64,000 nucleotides of DNA from a virus (taxonomy: Duplodnaviria; Caudoviricetes): IMG/VR virus record IMGVR_UViG_3300042379_000183, positions 1,376 through 65,375 of that record. One strand, given 5' to 3'. The notes under the pieces were generated by a model, which ran no database searches, was not told where the DNA came from, and was given only the letters and a program-made list of their open reading frames with translations. The translations under genes and the position numbers were made by a program. Of the stretch, positions 9,055-40,180 are shown piece after piece. Numbering within the stretch: the first letter of the stretch is position 1; each line of letters opens with the position of its first letter.

Positions 9055-9526
9055 TTAAATACTCCTCTACTTCGACATATTCACAATTATTATATGCAAT
9101 AGTTGCATCAATAGTAGGGAAGATATCTGCAATAATACGAGGTATCAAGTATGTATTTCCACCTCCATTATTTGTACATAGTAAGACATATACGAAAGTA
9201 TTATTTTCAATGTACTCACAGATATCAAAAGCAGTAATTGCTTCTGTTATATTATAGTATCTATCTAAGGTTTCATGAAGTCGTAATGTTTCTACTTTAG
9301 TTAAATCTTCTGGTGTTTCTATTAAATAAATACCACCACCAAGATCTACTTGAAAATTTGATCCATACTCTTCATCATAATAAACTTCAAAGTCTTCATT
9401 ATGTTTTGCAAAAGATGTTTCAACAATCTTTAGAAAATCAGGTGAAGGGCATCTCTGTCTTAACTCAACAAGATTATTACCAAGATCTATCATTTTATTC
9501 CTATGAGAAACAATACTCACTATCAA
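9038..9526 (-). CDS. Hypothetical acidic protein
   Basis: 162-aa ORF directly downstream of the RNAP gene. Confidence 0.6.
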   Translation of the reverse strand: MIVSIVSHRNKMIDLGNNLVELRQRCPSPDFLKIVETSFAKHNEDFEVYYDEEYGSNFQVDLGGGIYLIETPEDLTKVETLRLHETLDRYYNITEAITAFDICEYIENNTFVYVLLCTNNGGGNTYLIPRIIADIFPTIDATIAYNNCEYVEVEEYLNVDNS

Positions 9527-11771
9527 GAATTAAGCTAAGGTCTAGTGTACCGAATTTTACTGCATCTATGTTTCCATGTATATCCTTTATAATACTCGTT
9601 AATGGGTCAGCTTCATACAATTCTACAAACGTCTTTCTAAGCTTTATAAACAACTGTGGCATATCAGCTAGAAGACAACCAAAAGAATCATGAATAGTTG
9701 TCACTGGAAAGTCTAACTGATTTACTGTTATTGCTAAATGTGCAGCGTCTAAGCTATGGATAATATTTGGACTTGCACCTTGAGACTGCTTTCCCTTAGA
9801 TGGTTTTACATCTTCAATAAAGCATATTGCAAGTTGCAATGTATTTGAATAATACCCACTACTTTTTCTTTCATCTTGAGGAGGTCCATACTGTACCCAT
9901 ATCTTCTTTACATTGCCCTCTGTATAGTTTTGAACTACAGGAAAGTTAGTAATTGGTACAGTCCAAGATAAGAAACGCTCTTCTTTCTCAGCTTTCTTTC
10001 CAGCATCTTCAAAGACTTTTAGAAGCTGCATTGGACGTTCTAATGAGACTCGACAATCATTAAATACTTCTCTACCCAAATATGCACCCCACCTGTGTTC
10101 CATATAAAGCAAGAGATCAATATTATGCTTTCTAGCATCATCGATAACTTGTTGACCTAGACCATATGCAGTACCACCATATGGAATTGTCATTGTATTT
10201 CTCTTGACAATTTTTCTTTTGTATTTAGCATCTTTGATTCGATACCAAAAGACAGGAGCTGCAATGCTTAGGAGATATTCATTATCTCTTTTGAACTCTT
10301 TTATCTGTTCAATTAGAGCCTTACGTAAATCACTTTTAGGCTCAGCTGCATTTATTTGTTTCTTAAGCTCAATTAGATTATCAATAAAGATCTCACAATC
10401 TTGTATCTCTTCATCTCGCATAAGAACTAACTCTTGCTTTAAATGCTCCCATACGTGATCTCCTACATACTTATAGAGGTCTCCAGGTAGATCTAAAGGT
10501 ACTAAGTTTACATGTGGTGCAATTACTTCATCTTTTGTTAATGCTGAAAGATGTTGACTTCCATTATTAGAACCATCAAGATAGGCTTCAAGATGTGATT
10601 CATACTCATAAGAAGTATAATCATCTACTTTCGTTTGCCAAATTCTAAGTTTCATCAACTCAAAACAAGCAGCTAAGAATTGCCAAGGACTATCAGCTTG
10701 CATCCAACCTTGATTTACCTTTGGTGACTCTGCATAAGACAATAGAATTTCTTCATTATCTATAGCCCAAAGATATCTATCTTTCAATGGAATCTTGTCA
10801 GTCTTAGCATTATCTTGTCTTCCTGCATCTCCAGCCCAAGCGGAAGCAATACTCACAAGTAGCCAAAAGAAGCCATCTTTACCGATTGACTTCTTATCAG
10901 CTCTTAGAAGTAAACCTCGAGCTAGATCGCTACCTTGTTCATGAAGATATGCGGTAGCAACATATTTTCTACCTCTGAAGTCATAGTAATAAAGGTGATA
11001 AAATATCTTATTAAGAAACCTTTTAGCAATATCACCAATTGCTTTCGCTTCTCTTAACTTTGTTGCACGTGCTTCTACATTATTTAATTCCCAAATATCT
11101 GAGAATGCTTCTGTTTTATTACGTAATGCCCAAGAATGAATATTGAAGATTTCTGTGTTTATCTTCCAACCAGTTTCTTGTGCACGATTTACACAATCAA
11201 AGATAATAGGGTGTGTACTTATGGATAAGCTATCGAGTACTTCTTTATTACCAGTCTTCACCAACCAAACACCTGTATCGTGTTTTGCTGTTACCCAAGG
11301 ACTATATGGCTTCTCTGATGGTAATTTTTCTATTTTGCTAGGATCAAGATTATTCCATAGATTACAGATACCATCATCATTTAAAACTTGAATAATATAC
11401 GTAGCATGCCCTTTTGCACCTTGACCGAGTACTACCTGAATATAACCGAGTTCTTCAAAAGTATAAAGCATAAATGCACCAGTCTTAGCTGCTAGCGCTG
11501 ACTCTCGTTTAAGCTTATACTTGCTTCTGATGTTATGCCCAATTGCAGCAATAACTTCTGTCAGATAGATCGAATTTTTATTTGGTCCTCGTTTAGGTCG
11601 AGTATACAAATAAATAATTGAGACTAAGTTTTCAAGATAGTCTTTACACTTATATTGGAATAAATATTTTAATGGATTATGAGCAGACACCTCTATCTGT
11701 AATCTAGATTGAATTGAGTCTAGGATAAGTTGAGCTTTAGAATTTGAAATAACTTTTTTCATCTCATTCAT
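9501..11771 (-). CDS. T7-like single-subunit DNA-directed RNA polymerase (stand-alone)
   Basis: YDFRGRKY, motif A LDGSNNGSQHLSAL, motif B RKIVKRNTMTIPYGG, SPNIIHSLDA, motif C TIHDSFG; AAGGAG RBS. Confidence 0.95.
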   Translation of the reverse strand: MNEMKKVISNSKAQLILDSIQSRLQIEVSAHNPLKYLFQYKCKDYLENLVSIIYLYTRPKRGPNKNSIYLTEVIAAIGHNIRSKYKLKRESALAAKTGAFMLYTFEELGYIQVVLGQGAKGHATYIIQVLNDDGICNLWNNLDPSKIEKLPSEKPYSPWVTAKHDTGVWLVKTGNKEVLDSLSISTHPIIFDCVNRAQETGWKINTEIFNIHSWALRNKTEAFSDIWELNNVEARATKLREAKAIGDIAKRFLNKIFYHLYYYDFRGRKYVATAYLHEQGSDLARGLLLRADKKSIGKDGFFWLLVSIASAWAGDAGRQDNAKTDKIPLKDRYLWAIDNEEILLSYAESPKVNQGWMQADSPWQFLAACFELMKLRIWQTKVDDYTSYEYESHLEAYLDGSNNGSQHLSALTKDEVIAPHVNLVPLDLPGDLYKYVGDHVWEHLKQELVLMRDEEIQDCEIFIDNLIELKKQINAAEPKSDLRKALIEQIKEFKRDNEYLLSIAAPVFWYRIKDAKYKRKIVKRNTMTIPYGGTAYGLGQQVIDDARKHNIDLLLYMEHRWGAYLGREVFNDCRVSLERPMQLLKVFEDAGKKAEKEERFLSWTVPITNFPVVQNYTEGNVKKIWVQYGPPQDERKSSGYYSNTLQLAICFIEDVKPSKGKQSQGASPNIIHSLDAAHLAITVNQLDFPVTTIHDSFGCLLADMPQLFIKLRKTFVELYEADPLTSIIKDIHGNIDAVKFGTLDLSLILDSEYCFS

Positions 11772-11779
11772 GGCGCTCC

Positions 11780-11905
11780 TTAAAATAAATTTTTTACTAT
11801 GTACAATAATGTTATAACAAAGAGATACAATGCAAAGACGTTAAACACAACAATTAGAAAGACCTTTAAAAGATTCAAAAGAATTTCTACTATGTTGTAT
11901 TTCAT
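11780..11905 (-). CDS. Small hydrophobic peptide, 41 aa (not in ORF track)
   Basis: MKYNIVEILLNLLKVFLIVVFNVFALYLFVITLLYIVKNLF*; AGGA RBS; stop abuts the RNAP RBS. Confidence 0.45.
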   Translation of the reverse strand: MKYNIVEILLNLLKVFLIVVFNVFALYLFVITLLYIVKNLF

Positions 11906-11972
11906 TCAATTCCTACTTATTTTGATTGATTATAATAATAATAATGTCTAAGTAGATCGAAGGTATTCTATC

Positions 11973-12030
11973 GAAAAAGAAAAAAAAAAATAAGAGAAAG
12001 AAAAGAAACTATCCCACGAATGGGATAGTT
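11973..12030 (-). terminator. Strong intrinsic terminator upstream of the RNAP gene
   Basis: Perfect 10-bp stem AACUAUCCCA-UUCG-UGGGAUAGUU followed by a ~35-nt U-rich tract. Confidence 0.85.
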
Positions 12031-12331
12031 AGGGTTGACATATATCTAAAATCTTATTGATTTTAAATAATGCCAATTGATGCTCTAGTGAGCGAGGTGA
12101 TGATGTTTCTAACACTTGTTGCAACTTCTTTATTTCAGCCCGTGTTACCTCTATCTCTTTCTGCCTACGCAACACTTCTTTTAGATGTAAGTCAACTGCT
12201 GATCTTAGACGAGCACCAGTTGAAATACACTTTATTGTGTTTGAGATTGAGGAATCCTTTACACTTCCTGCAAAGAATTCCATCAATCTAAAACCTGCTG
12301 CTTTCTTACTCGAGCCTTTAGTTGAAGACAC
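12029..12331 (-). CDS. Hypothetical early protein
   Basis: 100-aa basic ORF overlapping the upstream gene, ending at the terminator. Confidence 0.55.
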   Translation of the reverse strand: MSSTKGSSKKAAGFRLMEFFAGSVKDSSISNTIKCISTGARLRSAVDLHLKEVLRRQKEIEVTRAEIKKLQQVLETSSPRSLEHQLALFKINKILDICQP

Positions 12332-12764
12332 GATTCCAGCTCACTACTGCGATCTCCTTTGTATCCTTCCAGAGATTGGTTGTCACTGTTGCTACGGGAG
12401 CTACAATGTTTTCCTTAACAGCTGCTGTGACTGTAGCCTGAGGAATAATCGCAGCCTTCAAACTTGCGGTTGTAACTTGCAAATTTGCTTTTGTTACTGC
12501 TAATTCTACCTTGGCAGCGACTATCTCATCCCTCATTTGCGAAATTTGCTGTTCCGCAATAATAGCTTCAAGCTTCATTTTATCCATCAATTCTCTCTGA
12601 AGCGTAATCTTTTCTTCTACTTTCGTTATAGCAGCATCAATCTTTGTTTGTTCAACAACAATCTGCTCTTGTCTCATAGTACACATAACAGCTAACGCAA
12701 TTACTCCAAAAGCAAGGAAGGTACTAACCACTGCACTAAAGGTTTTAGACATTTGAAACTCCAT
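12318..12764 (-). CDS. Membrane-anchored coiled-coil protein; likely start 12752
   Basis: N-terminal TM segment then heptad-rich helix; GGAG RBS before MSKTF. Confidence 0.65.
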   Translation of the reverse strand: MEFQMSKTFSAVVSTFLAFGVIALAVMCTMRQEQIVVEQTKIDAAITKVEEKITLQRELMDKMKLEAIIAEQQISQMRDEIVAAKVELAVTKANLQVTTASLKAAIIPQATVTAAVKENIVAPVATVTTNLWKDTKEIAVVSWNRVFN

Positions 12765-12818
12765 TTGGATTAGATGAACACATTAGACAGTTTGAAAACT
12801 TATCCAGGTTTAGCTTAC

Positions 12819-13121
12819 TTACAACTTCCACACATCCGATTCAGAACAAACTGCAAAAGCCTTCTCTGCAGCTTCTTTTTTACTCTTAGCCTTACTCCCA
12901 ACTTTAATTGCTAGAATGCTGAACTTACTTTCAACCGAGCCATCATCTTGCATTATTTCAATTATCATTTCAGTTTGAAACTTCTTCGAGTCTTTTTTCT
13001 TTAACTCATAGGCAACAGTGCTAGTTGTTGCTGCATCAAGACATATATTGAATTTTGAAACTTCTGCTGTACTTGCAAAAGAAACAAAAATCAATGTAGT
13101 CGCAATAAAGATCTTTTTCAT
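12819..13121 (-). CDS. Small exported protein with signal peptide
   Basis: MKKIFIATTLIFVSFASTA signal peptide, two Cys; GGAG RBS. Confidence 0.7.
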   Translation of the reverse strand: MKKIFIATTLIFVSFASTAEVSKFNICLDAATTSTVAYELKKKDSKKFQTEMIIEIMQDDGSVESKFSILAIKVGSKAKSKKEAAEKAFAVCSESDVWKL

Positions 13122-13161
13122 TTCAATTCTCCATTTGGTTTAGGTTGACAGACTTTTTGTC

Positions 13162-13191
13162 TATCATATAAGATACTCTTTTTTCCGCGTT
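13162..13191 (-). promoter_or_regulatory. Class I repeated motif, copy 1 (putative early promoter)
   Basis: Minus strand AACGCGGAAAAAAGAGTATCTTATATGATA; 27/30 identical to 14157-14186. Confidence 0.7.
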
Positions 13192-13276
13192 ATAAATACG
13201 ATAAGCCTATTAAAAACCAAGTAACCAACATTGCTATCAATAGTAAATTGTTAAGAATAAAGTTAAGTGCCTTCAT
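13190..13276 (-). CDS. Small hydrophobic peptide, 28 aa (not in ORF track)
   Basis: MKALNFILNNLLLIAMLVTWFLIGLSYL*; AAGGAGA RBS. Confidence 0.55.
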   Translation of the reverse strand: MKALNFILNNLLLIAMLVTWFLIGLSYL

Positions 13277-13299
13277 ATCTCCTTTAAGGTTGATTTAAA

Positions 13300-13578
13300 T
13301 TAGTACTGATTATAAAATGTATACTCTGTTTCCAGAAGATACATCTTTTCGTTTGCTCTGATTGGATCAATTGTAAGTGCCTTAGCTGCACCCCATTGCT
13401 CTATCAGAAAGGCGCCTACATTGTACGTTTCATTTTCTTCCAACCACTTAAATTCTTCATTTAATGCTTCTGCCTCTTCGTGAGTTACTTTAATTATTCT
13501 CCAAACAGGTATTTTAATGCGATTTCCAAATTTATCTTGTTCATTTCTCCAAGTTCTCAAAACATATGAATAGTCCAT
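13300..13578 (-). CDS. Hypothetical early protein
   Basis: 92 aa, AAAGGA RBS, directly downstream of the hammerhead cleavage site. Confidence 0.65.
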   Translation of the reverse strand: MDYSYVLRTWRNEQDKFGNRIKIPVWRIIKVTHEEAEALNEEFKWLEENETYNVGAFLIEQWGAAKALTIDPIRANEKMYLLETEYTFYNQY

Positions 13579-13596
13579 TACAAGTCCTTTAAGTTT

Positions 13597-13648
13597 ATAC
13601 AGGACGCCCTTTCAGGCGTTTCGGCTAATAAAGCCTCATCAGCTGTAC
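13597..13648 (-). ncRNA. Type I hammerhead ribozyme
   Basis: GUACAG CUGAUGA GGCU-UUAUU-AGCC GAA ACGCCU-GAAA-GGGCGU C^ CUGUAU: full conserved core, three paired stems, GUC cleavage triplet. Confidence 0.9.
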
Positions 13649-13818
13649 TGTTTAGTTATCAAATCTGCGTAACCGACAATTTCATTTTTGTCATTACGCG
13701 AATATGTAACTCTAGTATTACCATTGTATTCAAAGTCCGCTAACTGTTCTTCAGTTATCTTCTTTTGATAGAATGGTTCCCAAGTATCTTTGTCTATCTT
13801 TCTAAACCAGCAATCCAT
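13639..13818 (-). CDS. Hypothetical 59-aa protein (not in ORF track); stop codon lies inside the ribozyme core
   Basis: MDCWFRKIDKDTWEPFYQKK…DLITKQYS*; AAGGAGA RBS. Confidence 0.65.
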   Translation of the reverse strand: MDCWFRKIDKDTWEPFYQKKITEEQLADFEYNGNTRVTYSRNDKNEIVGYADLITKQYS

Positions 13819-13829
13819 TTTAGTCTCCT

Positions 13830-13928
13830 TTAGAGTGGGATGATATTAGTGTAGACAAGTAATCCAAAGACTATTGCAAATACTATCAATGCACAATCCC
13901 AGAATTGGTTTTCTTTTTCGTTAGACAT
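13830..13928 (-). CDS. Small membrane peptide, 32 aa
   Basis: MSNEKENQFWDCALIVFAIVFGLLVYTNIIPL*; AAGGA RBS; the longer track ORF (13830..14048) overlaps the upstream gene. Confidence 0.5.
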   Translation of the reverse strand: MSNEKENQFWDCALIVFAIVFGLLVYTNIIPL

Positions 13929-14121
13929 ACGTTTCCTTTTCAAGGTAATCAGACAGACGAGAGATTCTTTCGGCATAACAATTCGACATATATCGTGCTT
14001 GTTCCTCATGTGACTTATACTGTAGATAAAGCTTCTTAGCGTCTGCAAGTTCTAGTCTTGCGTATTCAGTTGAATCGATTTGTTTAAAAAGTTTCTTTAC
14101 AATAATCAATAGATGGTTCAT
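13921..14121 (-). CDS. Hypothetical early protein
   Basis: 66 aa helical protein, first ORF after class I motif copy 2. Confidence 0.6.
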   Translation of the reverse strand: MNHLLIIVKKLFKQIDSTEYARLELADAKKLYLQYKSHEEQARYMSNCYAERISRLSDYLEKETYV

Positions 14122-14156
14122 ATTTAAATAGAGTTAAGGGCGATATGCTATTTGCT

Positions 14157-14186
14157 TATCATATAAGATACCATTATTTCCGCGTT
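14157..14186 (-). promoter_or_regulatory. Class I repeated motif, copy 2 (putative early promoter)
   Basis: Minus strand AACGCGGAAATAATGGTATCTTATATGATA, just downstream of the lysis-cassette terminator. Confidence 0.7.
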
Positions 14187-14197
14187 TTATTTTGATT

Positions 14198-14220
14198 AAA
14201 AACCCCACTCATTGGTGGGG
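14198..14220 (-). terminator. Intrinsic terminator closing the lysis cassette
   Basis: CCCCAC-CAAUGA-GUGGGG-UUUUU. Confidence 0.7.
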
Positions 14221-14234
14221 CAAATAAAAACATT

Positions 14235-14381
14235 TTAGACTTTGTTATATAGCTCGAAAAGAGTTTTTACTTTTTCTTCCATCATTTTAAGTCTTACATC
14301 CATCTTAGCAAAAAGCACAATGACCATAACAACCGCAACGCCGATAGGCCAAAGTTTGCTTACTGTATCTAATACATCCAT
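14235..14381 (-). CDS. Small TM plus coiled-coil protein, 48 aa, possibly lysis-associated (not in ORF track)
   Basis: MDVLDTVSKLWPIGVAVVMVIVLFAKMDVRLKMMEEKVKTLFELYNKV*; GGAG RBS. Confidence 0.6.
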   Translation of the reverse strand: MDVLDTVSKLWPIGVAVVMVIVLFAKMDVRLKMMEEKVKTLFELYNKV

Positions 14382-14406
14382 AGCATCTCCGACAAATCAC
14401 TAACAA

Positions 14407-14910
14407 CTATTTAGCTGAAAAACATTTACTTTCAGCTACTCTTCGTTTTGTTAGACCTTTTAGCACGATACCTCCTGCTTTATTCCAGCAAAGAAATTCA
14501 TTTGCGGCTTCACTATATTCTAATCGATTTACAAGCCTACGTAACGTACTTGCTTGTAGATTTCCAACGCCAACATTAAAAGCAAAGTCAGTTAATGCGG
14601 CTTCTTGGTTAACTGTTAATGGTGCACTGATATATTTTAGTACACCCTTATTTGCTGTTTTCAGGTCTTCCTCTAACCAGAGATCAGCAGTTTCTTGATT
14701 TATTAAAGGGAAAGTAGTTTGGAGCCATTGATCTGCTTCTAATTTACTTTTACCTTCTTCCAAATGTTTTTTTAAACTATATCTAGAAACTAATCTTCCC
14801 CATCCTTGAGTAGGTAATCCATGTGGATGAGGATCCCAATACGATTTCAGAAAACAGCGCTCAAATGGTTTTGCAAGAGATGCAGCTAATTCTGCAACAT
14901 CCTTATTCAT
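14407..14910 (-). CDS. Endolysin, GH24 phage lysozyme
   Basis: FE…Y.D…T.GWG catalytic region; NQEAALTDFAFNVGVGN; WNKAGG.VLKGLTKRRVAE. Confidence 0.9.
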   Translation of the reverse strand: MNKDVAELAASLAKPFERCFLKSYWDPHPHGLPTQGWGRLVSRYSLKKHLEEGKSKLEADQWLQTTFPLINQETADLWLEEDLKTANKGVLKYISAPLTVNQEAALTDFAFNVGVGNLQASTLRRLVNRLEYSEAANEFLCWNKAGGIVLKGLTKRRVAESKCFSAK

Positions 14911-14925
14911 AATATTCTTTCGTTG

Positions 14926-15030
14926 TTAGCATGTGTGATAAAAGAGAATCATAACACATACAAAAAGAATTACTGCCGTTACAAGAATTAGAAACCATGA
15001 TGCTATTTGTGTAACATCATCTTCTTGCAT
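14926..15030 (-). CDS. Small single-TM peptide, 34 aa (not in ORF track)
   Basis: MQEDDVTQIASWFLILVTAVILFVCVMILFYHTC*; start overlaps the upstream stop (TAATG). Confidence 0.4.
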   Translation of the reverse strand: MQEDDVTQIASWFLILVTAVILFVCVMILFYHTC

Positions 15031-15581
15031 TACGCACCCTTATACGCTGTATTTGCAGATCCGCCGAAGGCAGCTTTAGCAGCTCTTTGGCCAAACCAAT
15101 AGGATAATACCAAAATAACAATAGACATGTCTGATGATGTCCATACGGCAAGTACTGCTTGTTGCCATTGATCTGGAGCAGCCTTTAATGCAGTTTGTAG
15201 TTGAGCCCATTTTACAATAGAATAGAATGAGAACGCTGCATACGTAATAGCCGGTCTAACAAGACTCGAAACAAAATCGAGTAATATAAATAAATAAAAG
15301 GCAGGTGTAAGAACCCACCCACTCATATTATATCCTTTGGCCGCATCAAGTAGCTGCACACCAAATGAATGGACTGGTTGATGTAATCCTTTAGACTCTT
15401 CGATATCAGCAGTTGCTGAAATCTCTTCCATCTTGTAAATATGTTCTTGTGATTTAGCTTTGATTTGTAAATCCATCATTGCTAATTCATGAAGATTGTC
15501 TTGTTTCCTTTGAAAGAACTTAAAGATCTCTGTTGCAAATGGTGCAAAGAAACCAAATCCTGCAGATAGTAATTCTATCAT
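15030..15581 (-). CDS. Putative holin (3-TM, GTA-holin-like)
   Basis: VRPAITY…LSYWFGQR, TM segments, next to the endolysin. Confidence 0.6.
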   Translation of the reverse strand: MIELLSAGFGFFAPFATEIFKFFQRKQDNLHELAMMDLQIKAKSQEHIYKMEEISATADIEESKGLHQPVHSFGVQLLDAAKGYNMSGWVLTPAFYLFILLDFVSSLVRPAITYAAFSFYSIVKWAQLQTALKAAPDQWQQAVLAVWTSSDMSIVILVLSYWFGQRAAKAAFGGSANTAYKGA

Positions 15582-15582
15582 T

Positions 15583-15828
15583 TTATAACCTTAACGTACA
15601 GATTAACCCAAGGGAACCACCTAATGCAGTAGCAACGAAATCCATTGGATCAGGTGTTCCTTTTCCTGAGACTTTATCATAGATCTCTTTAGCTGCACCA
15701 ATAGCTATAGCAAGACCTAGGCCTGCTTGCCAACCAAAAATATAATGACCTGCCGCAAACAAAATAACCCCACCTAACGCATGTAATGCTTTATCATATG
15801 GGATACTGGATAACAAAGGAATTTGCAT
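15583..15828 (-). CDS. Small membrane protein (VanZ/YfiM-like motif)
   Basis: DKALH…AAKEIYD…D..DFVATALGG. Confidence 0.6.
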   Translation of the reverse strand: MQIPLLSSIPYDKALHALGGVILFAAGHYIFGWQAGLGLAIAIGAAKEIYDKVSGKGTPDPMDFVATALGGSLGLICTLRL

Positions 15829-15932
15829 ATGATTCTCCTAACAAATTGATACTTACTTTAGTTAATTTTATTATTCTCAACTGGACTAGGACTAACATAA
15901 TTAGAAAAGGGATATAATAGGGGGACGTCGTA

Positions 15933-15951
15933 GGGTTAAGTTAACGGGTTG
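15933..15951 (-). promoter_or_regulatory. Class II repeated motif, copy 2
   Basis: + strand GGGTTAAGTTAACGGGTTG; upstream of the lysis cassette. Confidence 0.75.
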
Positions 15952-16030
15952 GTCTAAGTAGGAATGTCATATTCAATAGTAAATCTAGTTCTGAAAATAA
16001 ACAAATTAAAGCGGTCCAAGAGGGCAAGTG

Positions 16031-16106
16031 AGCCCGCAAGGGATACCACAGGGATGCCACCAAAAAATTTCTTGATGGTGGCCCAATCTGGTACCTTCTT
16101 GGGGCT
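16031..16106 (-). other. Long imperfect hairpin at the end of the tail operon
   Basis: Nested pairings AGCCC/GGGCU, CAAG/CUUG, GGUACCA/UGGUAUC, GCCACCA/UGGUGGC. Confidence 0.55.
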
Positions 16107-16115
16107 TCTCCATGC

Positions 16116-16604
16116 CTAGCCTACCATCAGTTTCGGACTAATGATTGGCATATTGTAATGAGACGTTTTCTTAAGACTAATATGACCTCTTCTTTCCCAA
16201 CCTAGCTTCTCTAAAATACGTGTAAAGATGTAATGCTCATCTAAATGACTACCTACTGAGAATACAAATTGATATTTATTTTTCTCAGCATATTCTAACA
16301 TGGCATCATGTAAAATCCTAATTGCACGATATGCTGCATGTCCTTTTAATACAGAACAATAATATTGTTGTTGGAGTACGCTATGTCTAAAGTGTAAACT
16401 ACCTCCAGCATCTGCATAGATCCAAGCAACAATTTTATTGTCTATTTCTAAAGCTCTTACAAATTTCTTTCTTCTTATTGCAAGTGATAAATTAGCTATT
16501 GCAAATTCAAAATCAATTGGTAAGAATTCATAATCATTTTGATCCGCATACAATTCAATACAATAACGTACTTGTTGAAATGTTTGGATATTAATGAGAT
16601 TCAT
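16116..16604 (-). CDS. Hypothetical protein, possible GNAT fold
   Basis: 162 aa; KIVAWI…LEKLGW pattern resembles GNAT-like phage proteins. Confidence 0.45.
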   Translation of the reverse strand: MNLINIQTFQQVRYCIELYADQNDYEFLPIDFEFAIANLSLAIRRKKFVRALEIDNKIVAWIYADAGGSLHFRHSVLQQQYYCSVLKGHAAYRAIRILHDAMLEYAEKNKYQFVFSVGSHLDEHYIFTRILEKLGWERRGHISLKKTSHYNMPIISPKLMVG

Positions 16605-16621
16605 TTGAAGTTAGAATCGCA

Positions 16622-30435: not shown

Positions 30436-30440
30436 ATGTG

Positions 30441-30770: not shown

Positions 30771-30777
30771 ACAATCC

Positions 30778-31412: not shown

Positions 31413-31413
31413 C

Positions 31414-31650: not shown

Positions 31651-31725
31651 ATTTTCTTTATAATAAAAACGGGCTAGTTTAAATACTTTATTTAAGTACT
31701 TTGTAAGTACACCCCAAACTATTAA

Positions 31726-32322: not shown

Positions 32323-32325
32323 TTA

Positions 32326-33562: not shown

Positions 33563-33580
33563 AAGTGTCTTTCTTATTTA

Positions 33581-34768: not shown

Positions 34769-34779
34769 TTTAATTCCTT

Positions 34780-35445: not shown

Positions 35446-35529
35446 TTTATTTCCTTTGAGTACAACTCATATTAATAAAGATACAATCTTTACTTAAATC
35501 GATTAGGTGAATTTATGTAAATCACACCT

Positions 35530-35548
35530 GGGTTAATTTAACGGGTTG
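35530..35548 (-). promoter_or_regulatory. Class II repeated motif, copy 3
   Basis: + strand GGGTTAATTTAACGGGTTG; right after the MuF-RNAP stop, upstream of scaffold/capsid. Confidence 0.75.
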
Positions 35549-35550
35549 GC

Positions 35551-38500
35551 TTAACCAACACCATACCAACTAAAATCAGTCACAAACCCTGGAGGAACCT
35601 TTTTTAAAATATCTTCCTTCTTTAAGATATCAGATTCTTTAAGAAGTTTTCCACCAACACGAGACCTACCAGGAACTGGAATAAGTCCAATATCAATAGC
35701 TTCATTTAGATATTTATCATATAATGCAGGAGGGAGTCCTCTTGCTTTCATCTCATTTAAGGTCATTAAGATAACATTGTTATTTAACATTTCAGCATAG
35801 ATTTCTCTTAGTGCTTGTCTTGCTGGTAACATGTCCGTTGCATTTGCAAAGAAAGCATCATGGATTGTAGAAGTAGGTACCTTATTCTTTTTACCCCATA
35901 AATGAAATTGTTTAACAATAACAGCATCATTAGAATGATTACCATTAACAGCAAAAGCAGTTCTTGCCTTACCTGAGTCTGCAATATCATTTATCTTACC
36001 AGACTTATTAATAACTTGTTGCCACCAAGTAGCCTCTGTCTTTTGTGGGATTTGAAGAATGTTAGTAGTCCAATTTCCATCTTTATCTCTATACGTTAAT
36101 CGCTCTTCAAATGTTTGGGTAAAATTCTGTTCAATTGTCTTTCCATCAAAATTTACCCAAGGAATATTTGTCCAGCTTTTTGGTAGTTTATTAGCATAAA
36201 AGATTTCTAATTCATTTAGATTTTTAACTTCTAATAAATCAACTTTTAAGTACTTTCCACCAGTACGTCTTGTCTCTGCTGCTTTAACTCCATATATAAT
36301 ATCACTGAGCGTTCCATTTGGTTCCCAAAAGCCAAAACGCTTTAATATCTTTTCACTAACAGCTTCATTAGCTTTTAAACCTAAAAGACGACTAACTGAA
36401 TCAGGTAAAACATAACCTTTTTTCTTTTGACCTAACAAAGAGATCTTAGCAATTGTCTTCCAATCAAAATCACTATCAGAAGGTTTTGCGTTAATGATAA
36501 AATCTTCTGCAAGCCTGCCAAAATACTTAGTGAAATCTTTCAAGATAGGAACTTGCTCACTTAAGTACTCACTCATTATCTTTGCAATATTTTTAAAGTC
36601 CTCTGGTGTAACAATTTTATCATATGACCTAGTCATCTTCTCAACTAAGTCTCTAGTTGCTGGATCTAAGAAATATAATTGTTCCATTATGTCATCACCA
36701 GGATCAAGACCCTTATTAAAAATATCTTTTACATTTTCTCTGAGAACTCTTAATTCATTTGCAGTATCCATATCAAACTTCTCAAATCGTGCTATTCTAG
36801 CAGAGATTTCGTTTAATACAATCTCTCTATCAGATGCTTTTACAACTAAGACATTTTCATCTTTACCTAAGATTTTAGAAAGCTTTCCTTCTACATTCAA
36901 TGCACCTGTTCTTTCACCGGCACCATAGAAGGTTACCATATTCTGTGCTTTAGCAGCCTTCCTTAAATCTTTTTCAGATAAGCCTAACTTTTCATTTAAC
37001 TTTCTAAATCTAATATCATTAAATGTTGAGCTAGCAATTTCGTCATATAGTCTTTTCTTTTGGGAAGTAGGGACTACATTACTTAGTTCTGCAAGTTGTT
37101 TATTCTTAGTCGTTAATGCAATAATTTGTGCACCAGAAGAAGAAGCATCTTGCTCTAACGCTAATGCGATTTCATAGTCTTTTAACTTTAACAAGTTCTT
37201 AGCAGTATAACTACCTTCTAAATAATTATCTATCTTTGCTATCTCTAAAGCAAATCGTAGAAATTTATTTAACTCTTCACCATCTACTTTAGAAAAAATC
37301 TCTGAATCTAAAATAGCACGTAAGTCTGCTGGTTTCTTACGAAGCATATTATTGCCAAGTTTAACCAGCTCTGGTCGCCATTTTACTGCAATTTTTTGTC
37401 TACCTGTAACAGTTAGTGAATTAAACTTACCTTCAAAATGATCGCTTAATCCACCTAAGAATGCACCAACTTGATCTTGTAAGTTACCGAAGTCATCAAC
37501 ACTAAACTTTTTAATTTCAGCTGTATTTAAAAATGGTCTGAATGTCTCGCCTGATTGAGGACTAATAAGACCTCTATCATAAATTCTCGCTCTATGATCG
37601 ATAAAAGGATGGTTACTAAAGGCAGTATCATCTTTACGTAACCACTCCATTGCTTTGAATCGTTCATAGGCATCACCGCGATTTGCAATATATTTTCTAT
37701 ATTCATTCAAATCATTATACTTCTTTGCTTGACCTCTATCATCTTCAAAGTACAGCAATTTTTGTGTGAAATCAAAATAGTCTTTATCTATTCGATACTT
37801 AGTTTTTGAAGCCCAATTTAATGCATCTATTAAATTCTTATCAACAAACTCTTCTGGAAAATCGCTAAAGCTAGAAGTAGAGGTAATTGGAATACGAGTA
37901 TCCTCATAACCAAAGATACCTTGATCAATAAAATATGTTTTATAACCTTCTCTAAAGACTAATTTATTTTTATCTTCTGTTACACTAACTCTTAATCCAA
38001 CTTCAACTTTACGAGTGAGTTTAGAGTATTCCTGAATTCTAGGATCGGTAACACGGATATTATAAGATAATGTATCGTAGTATGGACCAAAGTAACTATT
38101 ACTCAAACGACTCTTCATTCTTCTTTTCTGCACACCAAAAGTCTCTACTTCAAAGAACTTACTCACATTCTTTGCTTCTAATAGCTTAGAGCCTAATTCA
38201 TACCAGGTACGACGATATCCATTTACATTTGCTAAGTTATACAAGTCACGACCGAGAGCTACTGCAAATTGATCTCTATCTGGTGTATCTGCTAAACTAA
38301 GACGATGTGCAAATCTTAAATAGAACTGTTGTAAATCTCTATCTGAAATTCTACTACTTATCAGTAATGGAATTTTTCTATCAAAGACATTTCTAAGTTC
38401 TAACGCTATCTTTGGTGCAACAGTATCTTCCCATTTATTCTTAGCAAGAATATTAGGAATGAAGTTATCATGTAAGTCTTGTAACTGAGTGGGACCAAGA

Positions 38501-40179
38501 ACTGGATCTAAGTAACTATCTTGTAATAGCTTCTTTAAAAAATCAGAATTCTTTCTAATTTGTGTTTCAATTGAATCAGAAACGTTCATGATATCGAACT
38601 TGATTTGACTCTGAACAACAGCTTTAAAATTAGTCCAAATCTCTTTATTATCTCGGTATCTACCAAAAATAATTCTTAAATTATCAGCAACAACAGCTTG
38701 CTCATTAACACTCATTTTATCTGCTAACGTATTAATAACAGAGTTAATAAATGTTTTGTCATCTTCTAATAACTTATCACTAGTTTCAATAAGTCTTAAA
38801 TTATTAGTTAACACACTAGGATTAGGTTGATAAAGTCTTACATCTTCATATCTAGAAGTAATTGGATTAAACTTAAGCTGATCCTCTCTAGGTGGATTTG
38901 CTAATACTCTATTCTTTACACCTCTCTTTACATTTAGTAAGGTGCCTCTATAATTTGTTAAAGAAAGTGTACCATCTAACTCACCAGATTGCAGAAGATA
39001 ATAATCAATTAATGTTTGTTTTAATTTAGAATTAGAAATAAAATCATCAGGAGTAGATGCACCTAGTTGCATAGCATCTAACTTCTCTTTTGCTTTTGCA
39101 AATTTACGTGTATCGTTTGGTAATGTATAACTACTATCAGACAATGTACGTAATTCTTTAATACCAATTGAATTACCTTCTGGATTTGTAAATCTATCTA
39201 AAGTTAGTTGACCTGAGTTAAATAATTCAACTTTCTGATAATCACCAAGATGTCTAATTTTTACATCTTGTGGTTGTCGTAATAGCCAAGTGTTATACGA
39301 CTCTCTCATTGGCGTTAGGCCATCATAAAACTGAATTTCAGCGTCAGATAATCCTTTTAAGTTTCTACGTCTAACTTGTGATACACCTTCTAATTTACCA
39401 ATATCTTCCCATGATTTAAAAACAGGAACTGTAGTAGATCTACAATGAAAGTGTGCAGGAGGTAAATGTACTGTGTCAGTTGTTGGATAAATCGTTCCAT
39501 CTCTATGTGCGCATAAGGAAGTTGTTCTTGAATCTAGGACTGCAACATATTGCCAACCGGTTAAGGCTTTCTCATTTGCTTTATAGATTGCTTGATCTGT
39601 TTGAGCCGTTACCGATGTAATTGCAGTAATGACAAGTGCTTTAGACTGAGTTCTACTGATATTATAAATATTAGTTTTTCTTACCTCTAAAGCAATTTCA
39701 TCAACTGTCATTCCAGTAGCAATACCACGTCTGATTGTGGCATCAATACGTTTCTTTTCATTAATACTTACGCTAGCCCAACCAGCAGCTAATGTTTTGT
39801 TTTCAAATAAAGGCTGATTAAGAACTACATCTTCAGCAATACGTACTGGAGGTCTTTCTGCCTTCCAGATCTTTCCCATTGATGTTTCAATAGTTTGATA
39901 GGTAAAAGAAAGTTGATCAGAAACTAAATCTAATAAAGATCTCTTTGATGTGTTAAAGGTTTCTTTAAATGTAGCTTGTAGCTCTTGATCAACTGCTTCT
40001 CTAAGTGTCTCAAAGCCCTTTTGAGATGCCGTAGCATTTTTAATAAGTTTATCTAATCGGACTTCATGGCCATCCAATACTAACGATATCTTACTATTTA
40101 CACGACGCTCATAAAGCCGAATCATTGCGGCACGATCAAGAGTCCTATCGTAAATTTTGGTATTAGCATTGGATAGCAT
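35551..40179 (-). CDS. MuF (SPP1 gp7-like) head morphogenesis domain fused to a T7-like single-subunit RNA polymerase
   Basis: N-terminal WQYVAVLDSRTTSLC…PPAHFHCRS; C-terminal IDHRARIY, motif A EQDASSSGAQ, motif B RKAAKAQNMVTFYGAG, NHSNDA, motif C TIHDAF; start placed at ATG 40179. Confidence 0.9.
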   Translation of the reverse strand: MLSNANTKIYDRTLDRAAMIRLYERRVNSKISLVLDGHEVRLDKLIKNATASQKGFETLREAVDQELQATFKETFNTSKRSLLDLVSDQLSFTYQTIETSMGKIWKAERPPVRIAEDVVLNQPLFENKTLAAGWASVSINEKKRIDATIRRGIATGMTVDEIALEVRKTNIYNISRTQSKALVITAITSVTAQTDQAIYKANEKALTGWQYVAVLDSRTTSLCAHRDGTIYPTTDTVHLPPAHFHCRSTTVPVFKSWEDIGKLEGVSQVRRRNLKGLSDAEIQFYDGLTPMRESYNTWLLRQPQDVKIRHLGDYQKVELFNSGQLTLDRFTNPEGNSIGIKELRTLSDSSYTLPNDTRKFAKAKEKLDAMQLGASTPDDFISNSKLKQTLIDYYLLQSGELDGTLSLTNYRGTLLNVKRGVKNRVLANPPREDQLKFNPITSRYEDVRLYQPNPSVLTNNLRLIETSDKLLEDDKTFINSVINTLADKMSVNEQAVVADNLRIIFGRYRDNKEIWTNFKAVVQSQIKFDIMNVSDSIETQIRKNSDFLKKLLQDSYLDPVLGPTQLQDLHDNFIPNILAKNKWEDTVAPKIALELRNVFDRKIPLLISSRISDRDLQQFYLRFAHRLSLADTPDRDQFAVALGRDLYNLANVNGYRRTWYELGSKLLEAKNVSKFFEVETFGVQKRRMKSRLSNSYFGPYYDTLSYNIRVTDPRIQEYSKLTRKVEVGLRVSVTEDKNKLVFREGYKTYFIDQGIFGYEDTRIPITSTSSFSDFPEEFVDKNLIDALNWASKTKYRIDKDYFDFTQKLLYFEDDRGQAKKYNDLNEYRKYIANRGDAYERFKAMEWLRKDDTAFSNHPFIDHRARIYDRGLISPQSGETFRPFLNTAEIKKFSVDDFGNLQDQVGAFLGGLSDHFEGKFNSLTVTGRQKIAVKWRPELVKLGNNMLRKKPADLRAILDSEIFSKVDGEELNKFLRFALEIAKIDNYLEGSYTAKNLLKLKDYEIALALEQDASSSGAQIIALTTKNKQLAELSNVVPTSQKKRLYDEIASSTFNDIRFRKLNEKLGLSEKDLRKAAKAQNMVTFYGAGERTGALNVEGKLSKILGKDENVLVVKASDREIVLNEISARIARFEKFDMDTANELRVLRENVKDIFNKGLDPGDDIMEQLYFLDPATRDLVEKMTRSYDKIVTPEDFKNIAKIMSEYLSEQVPILKDFTKYFGRLAEDFIINAKPSDSDFDWKTIAKISLLGQKKKGYVLPDSVSRLLGLKANEAVSEKILKRFGFWEPNGTLSDIIYGVKAAETRRTGGKYLKVDLLEVKNLNELEIFYANKLPKSWTNIPWVNFDGKTIEQNFTQTFEERLTYRDKDGNWTTNILQIPQKTEATWWQQVINKSGKINDIADSGKARTAFAVNGNHSNDAVIVKQFHLWGKKNKVPTSTIHDAFFANATDMLPARQALREIYAEMLNNNVILMTLNEMKARGLPPALYDKYLNEAIDIGLIPVPGRSRVGGKLLKESDILKKEDILKKVPPGFVTDFSWYGVG

Positions 40180-40180
40180 G

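What the first reader, a model, noticed from the sequence alone, without database searches (positions are those of the whole stretch)
9501..40179. Two divergent single-subunit RNAPs and two promoter-like motif classes suggest a phage-only transcription cascade
Seen: a second, stand-alone 756-aa T7-like RNAP lies between the small early genes and the replication module and shares only the catalytic motifs with the MuF-RNAP. Two unrelated intergenic motif families sort cleanly by module: class I only before early genes, class II before replication, lysis, capsid and packaging genes. Inference: the virion MuF-RNAP reads class I and the newly made RNAP reads class II. This is N4-like logic built from different parts, and could offer two orthogonal RNAP/promoter pairs. 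The pairing of motif to polymerase is a hypothesis; class I could be read by host RNAP.
Basis: partly seen in the sequence, partly recalled or inferred. Interest (0 to 1): 0.85.

Follow-up and report, generated by a model that had tools for sequence, protein, structure and literature searches.

The report
Phage with two own RNA polymerases
A long-tailed environmental phage encodes two very different T7-type RNA polymerases, one of them fused to a capsid protein, plus two conserved promoter-like signals laid out as a relay that may let it read its genome without the host enzyme.

Summary
Observation confirmed. The window is all but 1,375 bp of a 65-kb IMG/VR siphophage record, with every gene on the minus strand. 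It holds a 756-aa T7-like RNAP and a 1,558-aa MuF-RNAP fusion. The two match each other only around motifs A and C.

A 19-bp motif occurs exactly four times, before the replication, packaging, head-tail and lysis modules. A ~30-bp bipartite motif occurs twice, before the ORFan genes upstream of the free RNAP gene. Both classes recur with the same wiring in 12 related genomes, including cultured roseophage DSS3_VP1. Class I is far better conserved than class II.

The fusion's polymerase part folds like complete T7 RNAP (Z 30.5) and keeps the catalytic residues.

The relay (packaged fusion reads class I, free enzyme reads class II) is the most economical reading. No datum here assigns a motif to an enzyme. 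Host RNAP reading class I remains a live rival, since class I contains TATAAT in three of five lineages.

The design is N4-like in logic only: no hairpin promoters and no N4-type proteins. I found no paper describing it. This scan flagged the same design before in at least 15 other genomes.

The parts
35551..40227 (-). MuF-RNAP fusion gene. It lies directly after the portal gene and inside a class II-headed late operon.
   Evidence: Pfam PF04233 plus PF00940; PHROG head morphogenesis plus RNAP families; only MuF domain in the record.
39430..39750 (-). MuF (SPP1 gp7 / Mu F) domain of the fusion, residues 160-266.
   Evidence: PF04233, E 2.8e-13, 51 bits against a 29.6-bit cut-off. The signature residues T201, T204, D232, C239, P256-P257, H259, C262-S264 are invariant in 21 relatives.
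35554..38478 (-). Complete T7-type polymerase body of the fusion, residues 584-1558. It spans the equivalent of T7 RNAP residues 38-883.
   Evidence: AF2 model of residues 380-1558: pLDDT 83.7, pTM 0.81. VIA-align to T7 RNAP 8dh5_E: Z 30.5, rmsd 3.6, 527 aligned, model 205-1179 to chain 38-883. D1027, K1090/K1093, Y1101-G1102, D1434 and D1457 are invariant.
9501..11771 (-). Stand-alone T7-like RNAP, 756 aa.
14157..14186 (-). Class I motif copy 1. It lies just after the lysis-operon terminator, 35 nt before the first early ORF (14121).
13162..13191 (-). Class I motif copy 2, 40 nt before the ORF that starts at 13121.
12029..14121 (-). Early ORFan genes of 66, 59, 92, 100, 148 and 100 aa. None of the five that were searched has a PHROG family.
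11979..12030 (-). 10-bp hairpin (12007-12030) plus T-run (11979-11993), between the early ORFans and the free RNAP gene. Probable attenuator.
   Evidence: The same layout is seen in 12 of 12 relatives inspected.
11780..11905 (-). 41-aa hydrophobic ORF between the attenuator and the RNAP gene.
   Evidence: A similar small ORF is visible in relatives.
8562..8580 (-). Class II motif before SSB and the replication module.
   Evidence: Syntenic in G005, G002 and G004.
15933..15951 (-). Class II motif before the lysis module (endolysin 14407-14910).
   Evidence: Syntenic in G005, G007, G002, G004 and G001.
35530..35548 (-). Class II motif, 2 nt after the MuF-RNAP stop codon, before scaffold, capsid and tail genes.
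   Evidence: Syntenic in G005, G006 and G007; absent at this place in G001, G002, G004 and G008.
63740..63758 (-). Class II motif before the 149-aa gene, TerL, the fibre block, portal and MuF-RNAP.
   Evidence: Syntenic in G006, G007, G002, G004 and G001.
14202..14221 (-). Hairpin-T terminator that closes the lysis (last late) operon, just upstream of class I copy 1.
40343..41917 (-). Portal gene, immediately upstream of the fusion.
   Evidence: phrog_145, E 7.6e-55; PF13264 in relatives.

Best explanation
This is a self-contained two-polymerase relay.

1. The MuF-RNAP is made late from a class II operon. It is taken into the capsid through its MuF domain (the phage's only one) and enters the cell with the DNA.
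2. There it starts transcription at the class I elements (consensus TGCGS-N8-GTATCTTATATGA). It reads the small early genes and, through a leaky hairpin/T-run attenuator, the gene for the free 756-aa RNAP.
3. The free RNAP then recognises the 19-bp class II promoter and transcribes the replication, packaging, head-tail and lysis modules. All of these lie on one strand.

Shown: the genes, their intact catalytic residues and fold, the motifs, and their placement and conservation.
Inferred: packaging and ejection of the fusion, promoter function of the motifs, and both pairings.

I put class II with the free RNAP at about 0.8, class I with the fusion at about 0.5, and the whole chain at 0.5.
For: (1) Both enzymes look functional. 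Motif A, B and C residues are invariant across 27 and 21 fusion relatives that go down to 20-23% identity. The fusion's polymerase part matches all of T7 RNAP, including the N-terminal promoter-binding domain, at Z 30.5. A beta-hairpin stands where T7 has its specificity loop.

(2) The fusion is the only MuF protein in the record and follows the portal gene. 6 of 6 distant full-length relatives (24-36% identity) also carry MuF at the N-terminus. So the fusion is old and maintained.

(3) Wiring in the window: class I comes only after the last late terminator and before the ORFans and the free RNAP gene. Class II comes only before middle and late modules.

(4) The same wiring holds in relatives.
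- In 8 genomes of the close group, 24 class I sites (up to 1 mismatch) lie on the coding strand and 3 on the other. 22 of the 24 lie outside long ORFs.
- 36 distinct sites from 14 genomes or contigs give the consensus. The GCG box stands at a fixed offset in 32 of 36.
- In all 7 genomes that hold the free RNAP gene, class I copies lie 0.9-12 kb upstream of it. Further copies lie elsewhere in G001, G002 and G004.

(5) Deep conservation. DSS3_VP1, whose fusion is 28% and free RNAP 34% identical, has GCATCTATAATGA three times and a different class II (ATAGGKKRCGTTAAAGARGGGG, 11 sites at up to 2 mismatches among 14 at up to 4) in the same layout. G010 (complete, circular assembly), G012 and G011 carry TGAG-N9-GYATCTATAAT upstream of the free RNAP gene, and G014 carries a more diverged triplet there. 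Each has its own class II.

(6) Natural control. Pelagibacter phage Kolga has a related free RNAP, but its MuF protein is 633 aa with no polymerase, and it has 0 class I-like sites.

(7) In the close group the register-equivalent hexamer of class I is TTATAT. It lacks the A at position 2 that sigma-70 -10 elements need (established knowledge), and it is unchanged in 34 of the 36 sites.

(8) Several class II variants end in AATGA like class I: G002 and G004 TTAATGAT, G011 CTAATGA, G014 AATAATGA. That fits two related enzymes with a similar start region.

(9) All known virion RNAPs (N4, crAss-like, phiKZ/AR9, P23-45) read early genes. I saw this only in the abstract starts listed.
Against: - No transcript, virion proteome or biochemical datum was available, so nothing here links a motif to an enzyme.
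- Class I is much more conserved than class II across five lineages, although the fusion (28-31% identity between lineages) is not more conserved than the free RNAP (34-36%). The fusion's putative specificity hairpin differs strongly between lineages while the GYATCT half of class I stays. Slow change and a TATAAT core in 3 of 5 lineages (VP1, G010/G012, G011) are what a host sigma-70 -10 element would show.
- The negative control is a single genome.
- A conserved hairpin plus T-run stands between class I and the free RNAP gene, so expression of that gene from class I needs read-through.
- In 4 of 8 close relatives no class II site precedes the scaffold gene, so the module-to-promoter mapping is not rigid.
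Confidence: 0.5

Rival explanations
1. Host RNAP reads class I, as in T7 or Xp10, and so makes the free phage RNAP. The packaged MuF-RNAP uses other start sites with no conserved sequence that I did not detect, or acts only briefly at the entering DNA end.
For: Class I contains a perfect TATAAT in VP1, G010/G012 and G011. It is far more conserved than class II, as a universal host signal would be. Phages with a related free RNAP and no virion RNAP exist: Kolga and the Xp10-like phages at 28% identity. The hairpin plus T-run before the RNAP gene is a classic bacterial intrinsic-terminator shape.
Against: - There is no -35-like hexamer at 16-18 nt. The conserved upstream box TGMG stands 14 nt before the TATAAT register.
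- In the close group the same register reads TTATAT, without the essential A at position 2, in 34 of the 36 sites.
- The contiguous 13-nt block and a fixed 9-nt spacing are conserved between phages of GC 33-48%. One of them infects an alphaproteobacterium (VP1).
- Kolga lacks the motif.
- This reading leaves an intact, conserved virion-type polymerase without any visible promoter.
- The sigma-70 scan finds no match on either class I site on the coding strand, but that scan has no power in AT-rich DNA.
Confidence: 0.27
2. The free RNAP reads both motif classes, as two promoter strengths or timing classes of one enzyme. The MuF-RNAP does something other than promoter-specific transcription, for example pulling DNA into the cell, priming replication or making a non-coding RNA.
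For: T7 RNAP is known to pull the genome in and to prime replication (established knowledge, recalled). Both classes share an A/T-rich 3' end, and in some lineages both end in AATGA.
Against: The two motifs share no alignable specificity region. The free RNAP gene lies behind class I in 7 of 7 genomes that hold it, so the enzyme could not start its own synthesis. The fusion keeps a full T7-like N-terminal domain and a specificity-type hairpin, which a non-specific motor would not need.
Confidence: 0.1
3. The pairing is swapped: the packaged fusion reads class II and the free RNAP reads class I.
For: Nothing specific. No test here excludes it.
Against: All late and lysis genes would be switched on at entry. 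The free RNAP would serve only a few ORFans and its own gene, with nothing to start it. Class II changes fast between lineages, as T7-group RNAP-promoter pairs do.
Confidence: 0.04
4. One or both motifs are not promoters. They could be operators, RNA-processing signals, or replication or packaging sites.
For: Only sequence evidence exists. Class I is partly palindromic (TATC...GATA) in some copies.
Against: - Strand bias is strict: class II 4 to 0 in the window, class I 24 to 3 in 8 genomes.
- The sites are intergenic, at module heads and directly after terminators.
- The distance to the next start codon varies from 7 to 476 nt, which argues against an RNA or RBS element.
- The palindrome is broken in many copies, and there is no shared fold.
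Confidence: 0.05

Closest known systems
Coliphage N4 programme (Schitoviridae): virion RNAP gp50, then RNAPII gp15/gp16, then host RNAP
   Same: A single-subunit RNAP carried in the virion is thought to start infection, and a second phage-coded single-subunit RNAP follows. Both belong to the T7-like superfamily. N4 mini-vRNAP matches the fusion model at Z 19.8 (3c46_A, rmsd 7.1, 616 aligned).
   Different: - N4 vRNAP is a roughly 3,500-aa protein with a central polymerase and no MuF domain. I saw the abstract starts of PMC13434306 and PMC4496689 in the listing only.
- N4 early promoters are hairpins on single-stranded DNA (recalled). Here 5 of 6 class I sites fold no better than shuffles, and no shared hairpin exists.
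- N4 RNAPII is a two-gene enzyme and N4 late genes use host RNAP. Here the second enzyme is one complete 756-aa T7-like protein, and class II covers the late genes.
- The fusion is structurally nearer to T7 and mitochondrial RNAPs (Z 25-30) than to N4 (Z 13-20).
- The virion here is a siphovirus with a 2,346-aa tape measure.
Roseophage DSS3_VP1 / DSS3_PM1 (Naomviridae, Noahvirus)
   Same: Same gene order, on one strand. The record has a 1,463-aa 'head morphogenesis' protein that aligns with 98% of the fusion at 28% identity, and an annotated RNA polymerase at 34%. It has analogues of both motif classes in the same places.
   Different: VP1 has dU-DNA, made with a dCTP deaminase and a YfbR-type dTMP phosphatase (PMC8323127 and PMC12697855, passages read). 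Neither family is found in this record. Identities are at family-or-beyond distance. The main text of neither paper mentions RNA polymerase (0 occurrences).
Thermus phage P23-45: tape-measure-fused virion RNAP plus non-virion RNAP
   Same: A virion structural protein is fused to an RNAP that reads pre-early genes, including the gene for a second, non-virion RNAP (bioRxiv 10.1101/2022.12.01.518664; abstract start seen in the listing).
   Different: The P23-45 enzymes are two-barrel RNAPs related to the cellular enzyme, and the carrier is the tape measure. Here both enzymes are T7-type right-hand polymerases, and the carrier is the MuF head protein.
Phage T7 (Autographiviridae) and siphophage Xp10
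   Same: The free RNAP is a plain T7-like enzyme: PDB T7 RNAP at E 6.9e-45 and Xp10 RNAP at 27.8% identity over 83%. The class II sites resemble T7-type promoters: a 19-bp exact motif at operon heads, with all genes on one strand.
   Different: T7 and Xp10 rely on host RNAP for early genes and carry no polymerase in the virion (recalled). Neither has a second phage RNAP.
MuF-domain effector fusions (polyvalent proteins and MuF polymorphic toxins)
   Same: MuF (Mu F, SPP1 gp7) is a head component that is often fused to enzymatic domains thought to be delivered into the cell with the DNA (PMC5512222, passages read; PMC11806420, passage read).
   Different: The cargo domains listed in the passages I read are RNases, 2H phosphoesterases, RelA/SpoT, PRTases, kinases and ARTs. 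In that paper N4-like RNAPs are linked to MPTase domains, not to MuF. A MuF fusion to a T7-type RNAP is not mentioned in those passages.

Membership tests
T7-like single-subunit RNAP (PF00940): free 756-aa protein | Significant match to the family model and to solved T7 RNAP | tested here: met
   PF00940 at 213.7 bits against a cut-off of 22. T7 RNAP 1aro_P at E 6.9e-45.
T7-like single-subunit RNAP (PF00940): free 756-aa protein | Catalytic Asp of motifs A and C, and Lys/Tyr of motif B | tested here: met
   The alignment to T7 shows LDGSNNG (D537), KRNTMTIPYGG (K631, Y639), HSLD (H784) and IHDSFG (D812).
T7-like single-subunit RNAP: polymerase part of the MuF fusion | Family model match | tested here: met
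   PF00940 at 46.8 bits against a cut-off of 22, in two stretches; 25.5 and 22.4 bits in the six-frame scan. There is no sequence hit to any PDB chain at E up to 0.01, so it is a very divergent member.
T7-like single-subunit RNAP: polymerase part of the MuF fusion | Whole fold, including the N-terminal domain | tested here: met
   Model pLDDT 83.7. Foldseek top hits are T7 and mitochondrial RNAPs at E about 1e-16. VIA-align gives Z 30.5, rmsd 3.6, 527 aligned, covering T7 residues 38-883.
T7-like single-subunit RNAP: polymerase part of the MuF fusion | Catalytic residues conserved in relatives | tested here: met
   D1027, K1090, K1093, Y1101, G1102, D1434 and D1457 are invariant in 21 sequences. 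The same columns are invariant in the 27-row alignment.
MuF / SPP1 gp7 minor head protein | PF04233 domain | tested here: met
   51 bits against a cut-off of 29.6; 56.5 bits in the six-frame scan, and the only hit in the record.
MuF / SPP1 gp7 minor head protein | Gene next to the portal gene in the head module | tested here: met
   Portal is 40343-41917 and the fusion 35551-40227, followed by scaffold and capsid. The order is the same in 12 relatives.
MuF / SPP1 gp7 minor head protein | Present in the capsid, bound to portal, and released on infection | not testable with these tools
   Needs a virion proteome or structure.
N4-type virion RNAP system | Giant (~3,500 aa) virion protein with a central mini-vRNAP | tested here: not met
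   The fusion is 1,558 aa with the polymerase at the C-terminus and MuF at the N-terminus.
N4-type virion RNAP system | Early promoters are conserved DNA hairpins | tested here: not met
   5 of 6 class I sites have z between -1.5 and +0.8 against shuffles, and their predicted pairings differ. One site has z -3.9, from flanking sequence of its own. The TATC/GATA half-palindrome is broken in many copies.
N4-type virion RNAP system | Polymerase closest to N4 mini-vRNAP | tested here: not met
   N4 chains score Z 12.8-19.8, against 25-30.5 for T7 and mitochondrial RNAPs, in the same list.
N4-type virion RNAP system | Second polymerase is the two-subunit RNAPII, and late genes use host RNAP | tested here: not met
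   The second enzyme is one 756-aa full-length T7-like protein. Class II sites head the late modules. Use of host RNAP itself is not testable here.
Naomviridae (DSS3_VP1-like) | Shared genome architecture and core genes | tested here: met
   Same module order. Fusion 28% identical over 98%, free RNAP 34% over 91%.
Naomviridae (DSS3_VP1-like) | dU-DNA synthesis genes (dCMP-deaminase-family Dcd, YfbR-family Dtm) | tested here: not met
   PF00383 and PF12917: 0 matches in the 94%-complete record. The control genomes do match.

The most novel reading that the evidence does not exclude
A large, so far undescribed group of environmental siphophages runs its whole programme without host RNA polymerase. 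The group stretches from freshwater and sludge relatives of this phage to the marine Naomviridae.

A complete T7-type polymerase rides into the cell on the MuF head protein. It reads a deeply conserved bipartite double-stranded promoter, TGMG-N9-GYATCTWWWAT. It hands over to a second, fast-evolving T7-type polymerase-promoter pair.

That would be a third, independent invention of the virion-RNAP relay, built from two full T7-like enzymes. It would also be a natural source of mutually orthogonal RNAP-promoter pairs.
Probability: 0.45. Interest if true: 0.85.

Novelty: new variant of a known kind. Interest (0 to 1): 0.72.

Why it matters
Virion-carried RNA polymerases are known from a few phage types: N4, crAss-like, phiKZ/AR9 and P23-45. 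Each of those uses an unusual enzyme. Here the carried enzyme would be an ordinary, complete T7-type polymerase attached to the standard portal-associated head protein of a siphovirus.

The design is common in metagenomes. At least 514 IMG/VR stretches encode relatives of one sub-lineage alone, though that scan also used the generic MuF pattern. There are 161 representative clusters in 1.84 billion proteins. The design is also present in a cultured, tractable phage-host pair (DSS3_VP1 on Ruegeria pomeroyi), so it can be tested directly.

If the relay holds, it would explain how these phages, including the dU-DNA Naomviridae, can ignore or shut off host transcription. It would add a new delivery route for injected enzymes through MuF. 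It would also give synthetic biology compact pairs of polymerases and promoters that evolved to be orthogonal within one genome.

Tried and rejected
1. Expression data. The look-up of sequencing runs on window 8001-16200, kind rna: no RNA holder listed.

2. Portal with MuF domain (residues 1-390), with alignments A3 and A2, in complex prediction: no verdict.

3. Sigma-70 scan of 8000-16500: 31 sites against 32.4 expected, none on the coding strand over a class I site. The same scan on Kolga's early control region, where host promoters are expected, is equally flat at 23 against 22.9. So this negative has no weight.

4. Bacteroidota-type promoter pattern TTTG-N17-21-TANNTTTG (consensus recalled, not from a call): 3 matches against 2.4 expected, none before an early gene.

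5. Co-variation.
- The free RNAP's specificity-loop region does not split with the AACCC and AATGAT class II variants.
- The fusion's hairpin is conserved within the close group and different in the other lineages.
- Both patterns follow phylogeny, so no assignment is possible.

6. G001 (98% complete) gave no free-RNAP hit. Its contig ends at a class I site and starts inside the replication module, so the gene most likely falls in the break. I rejected it as a natural 'fusion-only' case. G009 (59% complete) and G013 (71%) each show one polymerase only. They are fragments and were not counted.

7. Rfam: no family at gathering score in the window. None at E up to 0.1 in 11700-16200 or in the G005 early region.

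8. Host identity.
- The genome-contig scan with A2 used only the generic MuF pattern and returned ordinary prophage MuF proteins. All matches stayed within residues 3-435 and none reached the polymerase part.
- One portal relative carries a Flavobacterium sp. label. This is a weak lead only.

9. dU-DNA genes: none found.

10. EBPR siphovirus 1 (fusion 59.6% identical, split by an HNH gene): bases 1-50000 of the partial record hold 3 class II-like sites, no class I-like site and no free RNAP hit. The early region is probably outside the record or outside the part I read. It was not counted.

11. A joint phylogeny of the two polymerases was not attempted, because they align only at the motifs.

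12. Literature. Searches found no paper on a MuF fusion to a T7-type RNAP or on a two-polymerase relay in these phages. Supplements are closed. The supplementary annotation tables of PMC8323127, which I could not see, may name these genes. Its main text reports no virion proteome (passages).

Full report
**What the window is.** The window is bases 1376-65375 of a 65,375-bp IMG/VR virus record, classed as linear and 94% complete. All long ORFs lie on the minus strand.

Read in the direction of transcription (high to low coordinates), the order is as follows:
- a 149-aa gene and TerL
- about 19 kb of fibre-like genes with raised GC
- portal
- the MuF-RNAP fusion
- scaffold, major capsid, a 2,346-aa tape measure and a 1,718-aa tail protein
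- a lysis cassette with endolysin
- a strong hairpin-T terminator
- small ORFans
- the free RNAP
- two ORFans
- SSB, a nucleotide kinase, a family A DNA polymerase, an exonuclease, primase-helicase and RNR

It is a siphovirus with a T7-like one-strand layout.

**The two polymerases.** The 756-aa protein is a plain T7-like RNAP. It hits PF00940 at 5.6e-63, phrog_414 at 4.5e-110 and T7 RNAP at 6.9e-45, with all catalytic motifs aligned.

The 1,558-aa protein has a MuF domain at residues 160-266 and weak PF00940 matches in its C-terminal half. It has no sequence match to any solved structure.

The two proteins share only two short local matches, at motifs A and C. The record holds one MuF domain and exactly these two RNAP frames.

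**Is the fusion a real polymerase?** A full-library phmmer search with residues 380-1558 found 161 representative proteins at E up to 0.001, among 1.84 billion. About thirty of them are full length at 1,400-2,073 aa. Six of six distant full-length ones carry MuF at the N-terminus, and four of the six also pass PF00940 at E up to 0.001.

In the 27- and 21-row alignments the DxRGR-type block is invariant. So are the motif A Asp, the motif B Lys/Lys/Tyr-Gly, the HxxD Asp and the motif C Asp.

AlphaFold2 on that alignment gave pLDDT 83.7 and pTM 0.81. Foldseek's best matches are T7 and mitochondrial RNAPs at E about 1e-16. VIA-align puts T7 RNAP at Z 30.5 (rmsd 3.6, 527 aligned, model 205-1179 to T7 38-883). 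Mitochondrial RNAPs score Z 20-28 and N4 mini-vRNAP Z 12.8-19.8.

So residues 584-1558 are a whole T7-type enzyme, with the N-terminal domain. A two-stranded hairpin (fusion residues about 1372-1394) stands where T7 has its specificity loop. Residues 380-583 are a helical linker with no match in that list.

**The motifs in the window.** Class II (CAACCCGTTAAMTTAACCC) occurs four times. All copies are exact, all on the coding strand and all intergenic, against 0.04 expected. The copies stand:
- 34 nt before SSB
- 105 nt before the first lysis-cassette gene
- 2 nt after the fusion's stop codon and 85 nt before scaffold
- 347 nt before the 149-aa gene that precedes TerL

Class I (AACGCGGAAAWAAKRGTATCTTATATGATA) occurs twice. 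One copy lies 16 nt after the lysis terminator and 35 nt before the first ORFan. The other lies 40 nt before the ORF at 13121.

No class II site lies between class I and the free RNAP gene. A 10-bp hairpin, a T-run and a 41-aa hydrophobic ORF do lie there.

**Relatives.** By protein, the nearest records are EBPR siphovirus 1 (fusion 59.6%, interrupted by an HNH gene), roseophages DSS3_VP1 and DSS3_PM1 (fusion 28% over 98%, free RNAP 34%) and pelagiphage Kolga (free RNAP 28%, MuF part only).

IMG/VR gave 30 loci with close fusion relatives and 23 with close free-RNAP relatives. Of the seven records at least 90% complete that I could search, six hold both genes. The seventh, G001, breaks exactly where the free RNAP should be.

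I read eight whole genomes of this close group (GC 33-48%).

**Conservation of the wiring.** In those eight genomes, class I sites at up to 1 mismatch to GTATCTTATATGA number 24 on the coding strand and 3 on the other. 22 of the 24 lie outside long ORFs.

With six more contigs there are 36 distinct sites. The consensus is taaa.TGCGgaaaa...gGTATCTTATATGAwa, and the GCG box stands at a fixed offset in 32 of 36. One of the four sites without the box lies inside a long ORF and is probably chance.

In all seven genomes that hold the free RNAP gene, class I copies (one to five per genome) lie 0.9-12 kb upstream of it. G001, G002 and G004 have further copies before accessory genes between RNR and TerL.

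Class II sites recur at four syntenic places: before SSB, before the lysis genes, before the TerL operon and after the fusion gene. The last of these is missing in G001, G002, G004 and G008. G002, G004 and L053 use a ...TTAATGAT variant.

**Deeper lineages.** DSS3_VP1 has the same order of modules. It has 14 sites for ATAGGKKRCGTTAAAGARGGGG at up to 4 mismatches, 11 of them at up to 2. It has three copies of GCATCTATAATGA. Two follow the tape-measure terminator at the head of the small-gene block that leads to its RNAP, preceded by GTGAG at a 9-nt spacing.

A second IMG/VR lineage came in with alignment A4. Four of five long records hold both polymerases.
- G010 (complete, 107-bp end overlap) has GTGAG-N9-GTATCTATAATGA twice, 2.5 kb before its free RNAP. 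Its class II is ACCAGGGGACGCTAAAGAGAGA.
- G012 has GTGAG-N9-GTATCTATAATAGA.
- G011 has TGAG-N9-GCATCTATAATAGA twice. Its class II is AAAAATACTGCCGCCTAATGA.
- G014 has CCCTCTATAACGAAGAAA three times. Its class II is AAATAGGGCGGAATAATGA.

So class I keeps its 13-nt register and spacing across enzymes that are about 30% identical. Class II is rebuilt in every lineage.

Kolga's MuF protein has no polymerase, and it has no class I-like site.

**How it most likely works.** Three things carry the argument:
- The layout: the fusion gene is late and class II-driven, and the free RNAP gene is early and class I-driven.
- The maintained catalytic and promoter-binding architecture of the fusion.
- The precedent of every known virion RNAP.

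Class II with the free RNAP is the safer half, at about 0.8. It has many copies, it heads the modules, and it changes fast together with a T7-like enzyme, as in the T7 group.

Class I with the fusion is about even odds. For it:
- The motif is long, bipartite and contiguous.
- It has no -35 at a sigma-70 spacing.
- In this phage's group it reads TTATAT in the register where relatives read TATAAT.
- It is missing from the one relative without a fused polymerase.

Against it:
- Its slow evolution and TATAAT core are what a host -10 element would show.
- The fusion's specificity-type hairpin changes between lineages while the motif does not.
- The conserved hairpin/T-run before the free RNAP gene (12 of 12) forces read-through.

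The sigma-70 scan cannot decide, because it is flat on a control as well.

**Comparison with known systems.** The logic is that of N4 and of P23-45. The parts are different, and the N4-defining features that I could test are not met: protein architecture, hairpin promoters and closest fold.

The nearest named relatives are the Naomviridae. This record lacks their dU-DNA genes.

MuF as a carrier of injected enzymes is an established idea (PMC5512222, passages). In the passages I read, an RNAP cargo is not listed.

Eight literature searches found no description of the fusion or the relay. The main texts of the two Naomviridae papers I opened contain no mention of RNA polymerase.

Earlier notes of this scan report the same design in at least 15 other genomes, with similar verdicts. 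I treated them as leads only and re-derived everything above.

**Verdict.** The finding is a new variant of a known kind (the virion-RNAP relay). It is widespread and can be tested in a cultured relative. The decisive data are a virion proteome, rifampicin-resistant early 5' ends and a 2x2 in vitro assay.

Noticed in passing
window 11780-12030 (minus strand): A GC-rich hairpin, then a T-run (7 to 28 T in relatives), then a roughly 40-60-aa hydrophobic ORF precede the free RNAP gene in 12 of 12 relatives inspected. It may be an attenuator that doses the polymerase. The very long T-runs are unexplained.
   Followed up: partly
window 63486-63652: Four copies of the palindromic 14-mer TTAAAGACGTCTTT lie between the class II site and the small gene before TerL. 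Three of them are spaced 23-24 nt apart. They could be an operator or a terminase-binding (pac) array.
   Followed up: partly
window 35458-35468 (minus strand): A short hairpin GAGTTGTACTC lies just upstream of the scaffold gene's ribosome-binding site. It is conserved in relatives with compensatory variants: AAGT..ACTT and GGGT..ACCC. It may be a translational or RNA-processing signal.
   Followed up: no
window 15909-15926 (minus strand): The C-rich element GTCCCCCTATTATATCCC follows the lysis-module class II site. Similar CCCCCCTTTATTA elements follow the equivalent site in G001, G002, G004 and G005.
   Followed up: no
G008, G002, G005 (loci L059-L090); JF412302.1 (L001): In relatives the fusion gene is interrupted: six matching pieces in G008, five in G002, two in G005, and an HNH endonuclease gene in EBPR siphovirus 1. 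In G008 the free RNAP, TerL, RNR and primase-helicase are interrupted too. These look like intron or homing-endonuclease insertions into conserved genes.
   Followed up: no
window 13597-13648: Another first-reader note places a hammerhead ribozyme here. No Rfam family matches at E up to 0.1 in 11700-16200. G005 carries three copies of a roughly 90-nt repeat in its early region, also without an Rfam match.
   Followed up: partly
window 44000-56000: GC rises to 0.44-0.48, against about 0.35 elsewhere, over the fibre and adhesin-like genes between TerL and portal, including a 1,785-aa protein. This looks like an acquired host-recognition block.
   Followed up: no
protein P0188 (portal relative, 72% identity): It carries the NCBI label Flavobacterium sp., on a 6.6-kb contig. 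This is a weak lead to the host group of the close relatives.
   Followed up: no
L050 6700-6760 and 19617-19630: In a lineage with a 47%-identical free RNAP, class I reads CTGCGGAAATATCGGTATCTTATATAGA. A different repeat, CTTTTAAACGCAAA, occurs twice, one copy 45 nt upstream of class I.
   Followed up: no
G002 30678 and 34137; G001 17466; G004 14321; G010 43743; DSS3_VP1 67793: Extra class I copies lie outside the main early block, before accessory genes between the replication and packaging modules. They may mark a second early gene set.
   Followed up: no
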